Source of the DNA: a virus
Reading direction: 5' to 3' (one strand)
IMG/VR virus record: IMGVR_UViG_3300045747_000694
Span: 42,165 to 106,164 of that record
DNA length: 64,000 nucleotides
The notes beneath the pieces are model-generated. The model was not told where the DNA came from, did not search any database, and was given only the letters and a program-made list of their open reading frames with translations. A program made the position numbers and the translations under genes. Shown here in pieces: positions 37,745-39,341 of this stretch (the first letter of the stretch is position 1; each line of letters opens with the position of its first letter).

Positions 37745-38089
37745 ATGGCGGACTTCTTCAACGACGGTGGCCGCAACCCGCTCATCATCCCCGGGCAGGA
37801 GCGGCCTGCCGGCCCGAGCTGCCCCCACTGCCAGGCGGCAGGAGAGTGGACGGCTCGCCGGGTCCAGGGCGTCGTCCACTTCACCTGCAAGAAGTGCCGC
37901 GGGAAGTGGGAAGGCGGTCTCCCCCAGGAGCCGCAGGATCCCACCGTCCCGATGCCCACCACCAGCTACGTTCCCCCTGTCCGCATCGGCAAGGACTCGA
38001 AGGGCCAGGACGTCGAGATCCGCAGGCGCATCGACACCCGCACGGACTTCCGCAAGGGTGCGTTGATCCCTCCAGAAGGAGAAGAGTGA
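37745..38089 (+). CDS. zinc-ribbon protein
   Basis: CPHC...CKKC. Confidence 0.4.
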   Translation: MADFFNDGGRNPLIIPGQERPAGPSCPHCQAAGEWTARRVQGVVHFTCKKCRGKWEGGLPQEPQDPTVPMPTTSYVPPVRIGKDSKGQDVEIRRRIDTRTDFRKGALIPPEGEE

Positions 38090-38922
38090 TGGCAGAGAAC
38101 GAAGGTCCTGTGGTCTTCGGTGGACGAGAGCTCGACCCCGAACAGGAGAAGAACTACCGCGCGCAGATCGCCGAGGCGCGCAAGGGTGGGGTCTCTGCAC
38201 TGAAGGGTGGCGACCCGGTCGGCATCGCCCCCAAGGTCGCCATCCCCGTGGGCCAGCGCGCCGTCGCCCGGGCGCCGGGAGAGGGAGTGACGCCGCGGCC
38301 TCCGGGCTCGCCGCTCCTCTCACCCGAGACGGCACAGCAGCTTCAGGACCTCGCCGCGGCGCAGGTGGCTCAGGCCGCCACGACCAAGGTCGAGGAGAAG
38401 AAGGCTGAGGAGAAGAAGGTCGAGGAGGACCTCTTCAACGCCTTCGACTTCGACGGCCGCAACGAGGCCGAGAAGGTCCTCAACAACAAGAAGCGCCGCA
38501 AGGAGATCGAGGACCGCTGCGAGCCCATGAAGCTCGAGGACCTCATCATGCGGGACGAGGTCCAGCAGGTAGTCCACATCGTCCCCGGCAAGTTCGAGGT
38601 CGTCTACCGCTCGATGACCCCGGACGACAACCTCTACATCAAGCGCTACATCGCCAAGAACGACACCGGCCAGAGCGACCAGTACGTGATGGAGAAGTTC
38701 GGCATGTGCCAGCTCACGTGCACGGTCGTCTCCATCAACGGCCGGGCGCTCCCCGAGTACCGCAAGGCCGACGGGGACGTCGACGACGAGCTCTTCGAGA
38801 AGAAGCTGAAGATGCTCCTCAAGAAGAGCGCCTACGTCGTGGCCGACCTCGGCATCAACTACAGCTGGTTCGACATCAGGGTGAGGAAGCTCCTCAACCC
38901 GGACGCACTGGGAAATGGCTAA
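38089..38922 (+). CDS. hypothetical protein (277 aa); possible upstream partner of a -1 frameshift
   Basis: TGATG overlap with the upstream gene. Lys/Glu-rich middle. The heptamer G GGA AAT lies 4 codons before its stop. Confidence 0.5.
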   Translation: MAENEGPVVFGGRELDPEQEKNYRAQIAEARKGGVSALKGGDPVGIAPKVAIPVGQRAVARAPGEGVTPRPPGSPLLSPETAQQLQDLAAAQVAQAATTKVEEKKAEEKKVEEDLFNAFDFDGRNEAEKVLNNKKRRKEIEDRCEPMKLEDLIMRDEVQQVVHIVPGKFEVVYRSMTPDDNLYIKRYIAKNDTGQSDQYVMEKFGMCQLTCTVVSINGRALPEYRKADGDVDDELFEKKLKMLLKKSAYVVADLGINYSWFDIRVRKLLNPDALGNG

Positions 38923-39341
38923 ACACCGCTGAGGGGTGGGCTAGGGCGAACGTCCTCTACGAGAAGACGAATCGCCCTCCCAAGGCGGGGAGCTTGAAGG
39001 AAGCGCTCTTCTTGTCTGTCTGGCTCAGGCGGCAGGAAGCTCAGGTGTTCCAGGTGCGGATCCTCGCACAAGGACTCGCTGACCTTGCGTCGAAGGAGAG
39101 TCACGTCTCGGAGATCTTCAAGGAGTACACCGAGAGCGTCTTCCCGTTCACGAAGGGCCAGCAGGACACGAAGGATGCCGAGATGAAGGCCGTGATGAAG
39201 AGGGAGGTGGACAAGGGCATGCTCACCTTCCAGGCGCATCCGGTCTCGTTCCTCAGGAACAAGGCGCAAGAGATGCTCGAGCTTCCGGACGACTTCAAGA
39301 AGAAGCTGGCCGCCAAGGCGGCCGCCAAGGGGAAGAAGTGA
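38910..39341 (+). CDS. -1 frame extension ORF (no plausible own start); candidate G/GT-like frameshift product
   Basis: The frame opens at 38706 and runs to 39341. There is no ATG until ~90 codons in. Confidence 0.3.
   Translation, partial: GKWLNTAEGWARANVLYEKTNRPPKAGSLKEALFLSVWLRRQEAQVFQVRILAQGLADLASKESHVSEIFKEYTESVFPFTKGQQDTKDAEMKAVMKREVDKGMLTFQAHPVSFLRNKAQEMLELPDDFKKKLAAKAAAKGKK

What the first reader, a model, noticed from the sequence alone, without database searches (positions are those of the whole stretch)
38089..39341. Candidate lambda G/GT-style -1 programmed frameshift
The 38089..38922 gene carries the heptamer G GGA AAT (38910-38916) in the X XXY YYZ register, four codons before its stop. 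Lambda uses G GGA AAG at the equivalent position in G. The -1 frame is open from 38706 to 39341 and has no plausible start codon of its own for ~90 codons. A -1 slip would append ~140 aa to the 277-aa product. This overlap arrangement matches the tail-assembly-chaperone pattern, although the genes are not in an obvious tail block.
Basis: seen in the sequence. Interest (0 to 1): 0.5.

Follow-up and report, generated by a model that had tools for sequence, protein, structure and literature searches.

The report
Conserved frameshift in phage tail-chaperone-like gene
The slippery site is real: about 90 related uncultivated large phages all keep a -1 ribosomal frameshift that makes a short and a long form of a protein folded like phage lambda's tail assembly chaperone, although the gene lies far from any recognisable tail gene.

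Summary

**The site.** Gene 38089..38922 ends CTG GGA AAT GGC TAA, so G GGA AAT (38910-38916) is in X XXY YYZ register. The -1 frame then runs to 39341.

**Conservation.** In 92 non-redundant related loci (27-94% protein identity, 38-67% GC), 91 carry G GGA AAU/C or A AAA AAU/C at exactly this position.
- Rare codons are fixed at the site.
- The preceding base covaries perfectly: G with GGA, A with AAA.
- The -1 frame always continues for 128-157 codons.
- It encodes a conserved peptide (G/K-K-W-L-E-T-P-E-G-W-A...) that begins at the heptamer.
- No start codon is conserved. A -1-frame stop lies as close as 3 nt upstream of the heptamer.

**RNA structure.** A covarying structure begins within 9 nt downstream of the heptamer.

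**Departures from lambda G/GT.**
- The A-site codon is Asn.
- The protein has an extra N-terminal region of about 115 aa.
- The RNA stimulator is elaborate.
- No tape-measure or tail-tube gene lies within the 64-kb window.

The frameshift is near-certain. The tail-chaperone function is inferred.

The parts
38089..38922 (+). 0-frame gene ('G-like'), 277 aa. The N-terminal ~120 aa are low-confidence or low-complexity and include a long helix. Residues ~125-270 (nt ~38461-38898) form the chaperone-fold domain.
38076..38081 (+). Shine-Dalgarno AAGGAG, 7 nt upstream of ATG 38089. The ATG overlaps the TGA of the upstream zinc-ribbon gene (TGATG).
   Evidence: Read from the sequence.
38910..38916 (+). 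Slippery heptamer G GGA AAU (X XXY YYZ). The P-site Gly-tRNA moves from GGA to GGG and the A-site Asn-tRNA from AAU to AAA.
   Evidence: Conserved as GGGAAAT (56), AAAAAAT (32), GGGAAAC (2) and AAAAAAC (1) in 92 non-redundant loci. GGA 58/58 against 17% family usage, AAT 88/91 against 16%, AAA 33/33 against 13%. The preceding base is G with GGA (58/58) and A with AAA (33/33).
38920..38922 (+). 0-frame stop TAA, exactly one codon after the heptamer. This spacing is the same in all 92 loci (TAG 71, TGA 11, TAA 10).
38916..39341 (+). -1-frame extension ('T-like'): 141 codons read after the slip (WLNTAEGWARANVLYE...) plus the TGA stop at 39339-39341, which overlaps the start of the next gene.
   Evidence: GC3 is 0.83 straight after the 0-frame stop with no start codon until 38994. 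The -1 frame is open for 383-470 nt past the stop in every locus long enough to show it. The most conserved block lies immediately after the heptamer, with synonymous variation at -1-frame wobble positions. The AF2 model is all-helical with pLDDT 69.
38917..38994 (+). Candidate 3' stimulatory RNA structure. Helix 1 is 38917-38920 with 38991-38994. Helix 2 is 38926-38935 with 38979-38988, 9 nt from the heptamer. Helix 3 is a hairpin, 38943-38958 with 38962-38978.
   Evidence: MFE -34.8 kcal/mol, z -2.37 against dinucleotide shuffles. In the window's clade (20 distinct sequences), 91% of cells are paired against 38-50% with slid partners. 8 pairs have double changes, and 0/500 shuffles reach the observed values.

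Best explanation
A single mRNA yields two proteins. Most ribosomes translate 38089..38922 and terminate at TAA, giving a 277-aa protein. A fraction pause with GGA in the P site and AAU in the A site. The pause is probably caused by the stem structure whose main helix starts 9 nt downstream. Both tRNAs slip back one base onto GGG AAA, and the ribosome reads on in the -1 frame to 39341. The result is a 417-aa fusion with the same N-terminal 276 residues plus a 141-aa helical extension.

The shared C-terminal domain of the short protein has the gpG-type tail assembly chaperone fold. By analogy with lambda G/GT, the short form would coat the tape measure protein. The rare long form would use its extension to recruit the tail tube subunit. 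The fixed frameshift efficiency would set the ratio of the two forms.

Shown comparatively:
- the site
- entry into the -1 frame at the site
- translation of the extension
- a conserved 3' structure
- the fold resemblance

Inferred only:
- the slip efficiency
- that the structure stimulates the slip
- the binding partners
- the tail-assembly role
For: 1. Site conservation. 91 of 92 non-redundant loci keep an X XXY YYZ heptamer at the same codon positions. They span 27-94% protein identity and 38-67% GC. 80 of them were retrieved with search patterns that did not include the C-terminus. Rare codons are fixed and the X base covaries perfectly.
2. Entry point. In at least ten loci a -1-frame stop lies 3-6 nt upstream of the heptamer, so entry must occur in a window of 13-16 nt. 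No conserved start exists.
3. Translation of the -1 frame. The conserved peptide G/K-K-W-L-E-T-P-E-G-W-A-R-A starts at the heptamer and varies synonymously. GC3 switches frame there.
4. No natural in-frame fusion. None appears among the 216 and 819 relatives. The single junction-spanning hit, P0172, shows several frame breaks typical of homopolymer errors.
5. RNA structure.
   - 84 of 92 loci have a helix of at least 5 bp starting 1-11 nt after the heptamer, with a median span of 78 nt.
   - Folding energy is lower than in synonymous-codon-resampled controls. Mean z is -1.89, with 45% of loci below -2. A control region gives mean z -0.29 and 4%.
   - Covariation is seen in two clades.
6. Fold.
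   - Foldseek BFVD hits include annotated tail assembly chaperones, Bacillus phage G Gp181/Gp182, and N15 'Tail assembly protein GT' (E 3.4, rank 43, too weak to count on its own).
7. Published background. The G-T frameshift is widely conserved in long-tailed phages. G_GGA_AAC and A_AAA_AAC are used for g-t in haloarchaeal viruses (PMC5009743).
Against: - No tape-measure, tube or sheath gene was recognised within the 64-kb window (38 kb upstream and 25 kb downstream). None was found within 3 kb in 12 relatives that were examined.
- The neighbours look like early or accessory genes: an HTH regulator, a zinc-ribbon protein, GroES, an Acb2/Tad1-like protein and an endolysin.
- No sequence-level match exists to any tail assembly chaperone family in Pfam, PHROGs or NCBIfam.
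- The extension has no recognisable fold match.
- An Asn A-site codon is a weak shifter in E. coli compared with AAG (PMC5009743).
- RNAalifold found no single consensus structure for the whole family. The arm positions differ between clades.
- The 34 sequences of alignment A6 were chosen for having the 3' arm motif.
- Nothing here measures frameshifting directly.
Confidence: 0.72

Rival explanations
1. The frameshift is real, but the protein pair is not a classical tape-measure chaperone. It would be a gpG-fold chaperone repurposed for another assembly or early function. This would fit its placement beside a GroES homologue and away from tail genes, and its extra N-terminal region.
For: - No tail genes in 64 kb, and no tape measure within 3 kb in relatives.
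- Synteny with HTH, zinc-ribbon, GroES and a 144-aa CxxC protein is conserved. The CxxC protein is found downstream in 24 of 42 loci.
- The N-terminal region is variable (0.1-0.3 kb of coding sequence here, up to ~280 aa in distant clades) and has no counterpart in lambda G.
- No sequence match to known tail assembly chaperone families.
Against: - A gpG-like fold plus a -1 frameshift at the extreme 3' end plus a ~140-aa extension is the specific signature of tail assembly chaperones (PMC5009743).
- Gene order in ~200-kb phages is often scattered (my own background knowledge, not checked with the tools here).
- Only a third of the presumed genome was visible.
Confidence: 0.2
2. These are two independent genes. 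The downstream ORF starts on its own at TTG 38994, TTG 39012 or GTG 39045, as gene callers assume. On this view the heptamer is incidental.
For: - Candidate starts with purine-rich upstream sequences exist: GAAGGAAG before 39012 and AGGAAG before 39045.
- Automated annotation calls a 98-aa ORF from the 39045 equivalent.
- It-160 aa ORFs in relatives.
Against: - The most conserved part of the -1-frame protein lies upstream of all these starts and begins at the heptamer.
- Start positions are not conserved, ranging from +11 to +278.
- The heptamer is fixed with rare codons and a covarying X base.
- GC3 is already 0.83 between the stop and 38994.
Confidence: 0.03
3. The frame change happens at the RNA level. 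RNA polymerase would slip on the A run and delete one base, rather than the ribosome slipping.
For: A third of relatives have a run of six A's (A AAA AAU).
Against: - The window and 58 other loci have G GGA AAY, with runs of only three.
- The G/A covariation preserves tRNA re-pairing, not homopolymer length.
- Six A's is shorter than the runs known to support efficient transcriptional slippage in bacteria. This point rests on my own knowledge and the review PMC5009743.
- A conserved 3' RNA structure at a 6-9 nt spacing fits ribosomal frameshifting.
Confidence: 0.03
4. The split is an artefact or a pseudogene. A sequencing indel or a decaying gene would have divided one ORF.
For: One database protein (P0172) spans the junction in one frame.
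Against: - The same split appears in 92 independent assemblies from many samples.
- P0172 itself shows several frame breaks and a shortened A run, so it is the error-prone sequence.
- Both frames are under purifying selection.
Confidence: 0.01

Closest known systems
Phage lambda gpG / gpGT tail assembly chaperone frameshift (Levin 1993; Xu 2004, 2013, 2014, as cited in PMC5009743)
   Same: - A -1 frameshift on a G GGA AAN heptamer at the extreme 3' end of the upstream ORF.
- A -1-frame extension of about 140 aa.
- A gpG-type fold in the domain just upstream of the site.
- Both products share the N-terminal part.
   Different: - The A-site codon is Asn AAU, not Lys AAG.
- The upstream protein has an additional ~115-aa N-terminal region, up to ~280 aa in distant clades.
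- A covarying multi-helix RNA structure follows the site.
- The gene is not flanked by major tail and tape measure genes.
- There is no detectable sequence similarity.
HK97 tail assembly chaperone (PDB 2ob9) and B. subtilis prophage YqbN (PDB 3klu)
   Different: Sequence identity is 7-9%. The scores are moderate. The query domain is larger and carries an N-terminal extension.
[quoted passage not shown]
   Same: The same two heptamer classes, each with an Asn A-site codon, in tail assembly chaperone genes.
   Different: Here the last base is U in 88 of 91 loci rather than C. The hosts are bacterial; distant relatives sit in Myxococcales and 'Deltaproteobacteria' MAG bins.
E. coli dnaX tau/gamma frameshift
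   Same: A -1 slip on an A-rich heptamer, assisted by a 3' stem-loop at a short spacing.
   Different: In dnaX the shifted product is the shorter one, an upstream Shine-Dalgarno-like stimulator is used, and the heptamer is A AAA AAG. No conserved upstream Shine-Dalgarno-like element was seen here.
Tail assembly chaperones of T4-like phages (Vladimirov, Gautam & Davidson 2022; known here only from its title in the reference list of PMC10885494)
   Same: Large myovirus-type genomes in which chaperone genes were hard to recognise.
   Different: That work reports a mechanism other than frameshifting. This clade clearly keeps the frameshift.

Membership tests
G/GT-type tail assembly chaperone with programmed -1 frameshift | [quoted passage not shown] | tested here: met
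   G GGA AAT at 38910-38916. 91 of 92 non-redundant relatives have a canonical heptamer with a covarying X base.
G/GT-type tail assembly chaperone with programmed -1 frameshift | Overlapping -1-frame ORF with no start of its own, giving a C-terminally extended fusion of roughly double the domain size | tested here: met
   The extension is 141 codons here and 128-157 in relatives. No start is conserved. A -1-frame stop lies 3-6 nt before the heptamer in at least 10 loci. The conserved peptide starts at the site.
G/GT-type tail assembly chaperone with programmed -1 frameshift | gpG-like chaperone fold of the upstream product | tested here: met
G/GT-type tail assembly chaperone with programmed -1 frameshift | Gene position between the major tail/tube gene and the tape measure gene | tested here: not met
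   No tape measure, tube or sheath gene was recognised in the 64-kb window or in the 3-kb flanks of relatives. Unrecognisably divergent tail genes, or a tail module elsewhere in the ~200-kb genome, cannot be excluded.
G/GT-type tail assembly chaperone with programmed -1 frameshift | Sequence membership in a described tail assembly chaperone family (Pfam Phage_TAC_*, PHROGs, NCBIfam) | tested here: not met
   No hit for the window protein, for 57 family members at E <= 10, or for distant homologues. Known tail assembly chaperone families are themselves mutually dissimilar (PMC5009743).
G/GT-type tail assembly chaperone with programmed -1 frameshift | Short form binds the tape measure, the extension binds the tube protein, a low fixed ratio of long to short form is made, and both are absent from virions | not testable with these tools
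   Requires biochemistry or genetics. No cultured isolate carries the gene (tblastn against 50,697 phage records found no match).
Stimulated bacterial -1 programmed ribosomal frameshift (heptamer plus 3' structure) | Stable RNA structure starting about 5-9 nt 3' of the heptamer and supported by covariation | tested here: met
   The function of the structure as a stimulator is not tested.

The most novel reading that the evidence does not exclude
A gpG-fold chaperone pair made by an obligatory -1 frameshift has been moved out of the tail module. It sits in a conserved non-structural block with a GroES homologue and a CxxC protein, and it has gained an N-terminal region. On this reading it serves an assembly or regulatory task other than the classical tape-measure and tube chaperoning. 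Possible tasks include chaperoning the 2026-aa collagen-like fibre or another polymer in this clade of ~200-kb phages.
Probability: 0.15. Interest if true: 0.6.

Novelty: new variant of a known kind. Interest (0 to 1): 0.4.

Why it matters
- **Annotation.** The analysis turns two 'hypothetical proteins' into one recoded gene. The downstream protein is mis-annotated with arbitrary starts in every public record seen. The correction applies to a very large family of uncultivated phages with no isolate: 819 representatives at 50% identity, on contigs of up to ~210 kb.
- **A clean natural example of a slippery site.** There are two interchangeable heptamers with perfect covariation, an Asn A-site codon, a fixed distance to the stop, and clade-specific but always present 3' helices. 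This could be used to train and test frameshift predictors. It could also be used to study Asn-type shift sites in bacteria.
- **Gene order as a criterion.** If the chaperone really works away from the tape measure gene, gene order can no longer be used as the defining criterion for tail assembly chaperones in large phages.

Tried and rejected
- **Family searches.** PHROGs, Pfam and NCBIfam searches of both ORFs, of 57 family members and of distant homologues gave no informative hit.
- **Phage genome searches.** blastn and tblastn against 50,697 phage genomes found no match.
- **PDB sequence searches.** hmmsearch of both profiles against PDB sequences gave only noise.
- **Whole-family RNA consensus.** RNAalifold on all 91 sequences gave no consensus structure. 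The 3' arm sits at different positions in different clades, so I split the set by clade.
- **Joint alignment.** An alignment of the fused protein with both sets of homologues misaligned the short proteins and was not used for modelling.
- **Extension fold search.** The fold search with the extension model found nothing significant, and the model is only pLDDT 69.
- **Walking towards the tail module.** The look-up of the fibre protein's contig found no record.
- **Apparent natural fusion.** P0172 was rejected as an error-ridden sequence.
- **Upstream Shine-Dalgarno-like stimulator.** GAGGAAG lies 21 nt upstream in the window, but it is not conserved and is too far away.
- **Alternative -1-frame start.** An NTG created by the conserved Trp codon of WFDIRVR, 45 nt upstream, could act as a -1-frame start. 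It is CTG in the window. It is cut off by -1-frame stops in many relatives.
- **Neighbouring genes.** Neighbours in distant clades gave no functional clue.

Full report
**What is in the sequence**

Gene 38089..38922 (+) starts at an ATG preceded by AAGGAG. It ends CTG GGA AAT GGC TAA. The heptamer G GGA AAT (38910-38916) is in X XXY YYZ register, one codon before the stop.

The -1 frame is open from 38706 to 39341. After the heptamer its first ATG/GTG/TTG is TTG 38994, followed by TTG 39012 and GTG 39045.

Third-position G+C (GC3) is a strong coding signal in this 64% GC sequence.
- It is about 1.0 in frame 0 up to about 38860.
- It is already 0.83 in the -1 frame over the 24 codons between the stop and the first possible start.
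- The other two frames give 0.57 and 0.61 over that stretch.

A slip would give a protein of 276 + 141 = 417 aa.

Within the window alone the heptamer is only mildly surprising. There are 21 in-frame X XXY YYZ heptamers in about 15,200 codons. Only two have an A-rich second triplet, and only this one lies beside a stop.

**Comparative evidence for the frameshift**

The 277-aa protein belongs to a large family with no isolate.
- It has 216 clusters at 90% identity and 819 representatives at 50% identity.
- tblastn against 50,697 phage genomes finds no match.
- All members stop at the same place, ending L-G/K-N-G.

I fetched 106 loci. 24 came from IMG/VR, 80 from metagenomes and 2 from GTDB MAGs. 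The last two scans used peptide patterns that did not include the C-terminus. This left 92 non-redundant loci with 27-94% identity and 38-67% GC.

The heptamer counts are as follows:

| Heptamer | Loci |
|---|---|
| GGGAAAT | 56 |
| AAAAAAT | 32 |
| GGGAAAC | 2 |
| AAAAAAC | 1 |
| CAGTTTT (locus L019, which keeps only a U UUU tetramer) | 1 |

The codons at the site are rare ones for these genes:

| Codon at the site | Count at the site | Usage in the family |
|---|---|---|
| GGA (Gly) | 58/58 | 17% |
| AAT (Asn) | 88/91 | 16% |
| AAA (Lys) | 33/33 | 13% |

The base before the heptamer's first full codon is G in all 58 GGA loci and A in all 33 AAA loci. A Gly-to-Lys replacement is therefore always accompanied by the change that keeps the P-site tRNA able to re-pair.

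The 0-frame stop is always exactly one codon after the heptamer.

The -1 frame continues for 383-470 nt in every locus long enough to show it. In at least ten loci a -1-frame stop lies 3-6 nt upstream of the heptamer. The ribosome must therefore change frame within a window of 13-16 nt that contains nothing slippery except the heptamer.

The extension peptide starts G/K-K-W-L-E-T-P-E-G-W-A-R-A. This first block is its best conserved part, and it varies synonymously at -1-frame wobble positions.

Canonical starts in the -1 frame are scattered from +11 to +278 nt. Gene callers have given the downstream protein arbitrary N-termini of 98-160 aa. Some include out-of-frame translation of the upstream gene.

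No natural in-frame fusion was found. The one junction-spanning protein, P0172, shows several frame breaks and a shortened A run. I take it to be an error-prone assembly.

**RNA structure**

The 80 nt after the heptamer in the window fold to -34.8 kcal/mol, with z -2.37 against dinucleotide shuffles.

Across the family:
- 84 of 92 loci have a helix of at least 5 bp beginning 1-11 nt after the heptamer.
- That helix usually closes a domain of about 78 nt.

I tested this against controls that keep the protein sequence and resample synonymous codons:

| Region | Mean z | Loci below -2 | Mean energy, native vs resampled (kcal/mol) |
|---|---|---|---|
| 96 nt after the site | -1.89 | 45% | -40.8 vs -32.7 |
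| Control region further into the extension | -0.29 | 4% | -23.8 vs -22.7 |

RNAalifold on the whole family found no common structure. The 3' arm lies at different places in different clades, so I tested each clade separately:

| Alignment | Sequences | Cells paired | Paired with slid partners | Pairs with changes on both sides | Shuffles reaching the observed values |
|---|---|---|---|---|---|
| Window's clade | 20 distinct | 91% | 38-50% | 8 | 0/500 |
| A distant clade | 34 | 84% | 30-52% | 9 | 0/500 |

The 34 sequences of the distant clade were chosen for having the 3' arm motif. That choice biases its long-range helix but not its internal hairpin, which has six covarying pairs.

The shuffles ignore phylogeny, so these figures are supportive rather than conclusive. 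Whether the structure stimulates the slip is an inference. No Rfam family matches it.

**What the protein is**

Sequence methods give nothing.

An AlphaFold2 model built on 57 homologues has an uncertain N-terminal ~120 residues. Residues 125-270 form a confident domain with pLDDT about 90.

Foldseek against BFVD returns several annotated tail assembly chaperones. They include Rhodococcus phage Finch (E 4.5e-5), the Bacillus phage G Gp181/Gp182 pair, and, far down the list at E 3.4, N15 'Tail assembly protein GT'.

The extension models as all-helical at pLDDT 69 and has no significant match.

A gpG-type fold, a -1 slip at the very end of the ORF and a ~140-aa extension together form the signature of the G/GT chaperones. 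These are described as widely conserved among long-tailed phages (PMC5009743). The same review lists G_GGA_AAC and A_AAA_AAC as g-t sites in haloarchaeal viruses. [quoted passage not shown]

The window is clearly from a large phage. It carries:
- a collagen/S74 tail fibre
- a head-decoration-like protein
- an endolysin
- a class II ribonucleotide reductase
- an AAA ATPase
- a GroES homologue
- a tmRNA

The frameshift gene sits at the start of a rightward block of small genes. In order these are:
- an HTH regulator
- a zinc-ribbon protein
- the frameshift gene
- an acidic protein
- a 144-aa CxxC protein
- a GroES homologue
- an Acb2/Tad1-like protein
- an endolysin

No tape measure, tube or sheath gene was recognised in the 38 kb upstream or the 25 kb downstream. 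None was found within 3 kb in the relatives examined.

Synteny with GroES holds within the window's clade. The CxxC protein is found downstream in 24 of 42 loci, including distant ones.

The upstream protein also carries about 115 extra N-terminal residues. Distant homologues are 330-445 aa long with unrelated N-terminal parts.

The positional criterion that historically defined tail assembly chaperone genes is therefore not met here. I file this as a variant of the known kind.

**Verdict**

The -1 programmed ribosomal frameshift is as well supported as comparative data allow, at about 0.95. I put the tail-assembly-chaperone function at about 0.7, and my confidence in the combined statement at 0.72. 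Independent initiation, transcriptional slippage and artefact are each very unlikely.

The finding is a solid, useful re-annotation with some unusual features. It is not a new mechanism.

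Noticed in passing
window 11774-12142 (-): A phage-encoded tmRNA. ARAGORN gives the tag peptide ANEPMFAQQLAAA*. Rfam RF00023 matches at 105 bits over the full length.
   Followed up: partly
window 30687-33332 (-): An 881-aa protein with Major Vault Protein shoulder (E 2.5e-27) and vault repeat domains. This is unusual in a phage genome.
   Followed up: no
window ~42597-42818 (+) (= L107 11308-11529): A small protein with a precomputed Pfam hit to PF24729 Acb2_Tad1_hairpin (anti-CBASS/anti-Thoeris sponge family). It lies in the same rightward block as the frameshift gene.
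   Followed up: no
window 40645-41070 (+): A GroES/Cpn10 homologue (Pfam E 2.2e-9) 1.7 kb downstream of the frameshift gene. The linkage is conserved in the six loci longer than 5 kb that share this neighbourhood (L001, L003, L004, L030, L031, L038). It may mark a block of assembly chaperones.
   Followed up: partly
window 39685-40119 (+): A 144-aa protein with CxxC...CxxxC motifs and no family or PDB match. It is found downstream of the frameshift gene in 24 of 42 loci, including distant clades at 26-35% identity.
   Followed up: partly
L019 3480-3486 (IMGVR_UViG_3300047172_000213): The single exception to the heptamer rule. ATC AGT TTT GGC TAG keeps only a U UUU tetramer, yet the -1 extension and the 3' structure are intact. 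It may shift by single-tRNA slippage.
   Followed up: no
window 1625-7705 (+): A 2026-aa protein with collagen triple-helix repeats and a C-terminal S74 intramolecular chaperone domain, so probably a tail fibre. It is preceded by a head-decoration-like or virion structural protein at 10-1602.
   Followed up: no
window 22716-22722 (-), inside gene 22155-23159: An in-frame G GGA AAG heptamer in the middle of an HNH-like gene, 187 codons before its stop. It is probably incidental.
   Followed up: no
window 26239-27492 (-) and 7702-8826 (+): A transposase-like protein (phrog_10081, E 1.3e-19) and a radical SAM protein within the phage genome.
   Followed up: no
L105, L106 (GTDB MAG contigs JAKPDW010000050.1, CALFEQ010000011.1): Distant relatives of the frameshift gene (33-36% identity) lie on contigs binned into a 'Deltaproteobacteria' MAG and an uncultured Myxococcales MAG. 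This hints at the host range but could be a binning artefact.
   Followed up: no
protein P0172: A database protein that seems to fuse both frames. It contains several out-of-frame stretches and a shortened A run, so it is likely a homopolymer-error assembly and not a natural fusion.
   Followed up: partly
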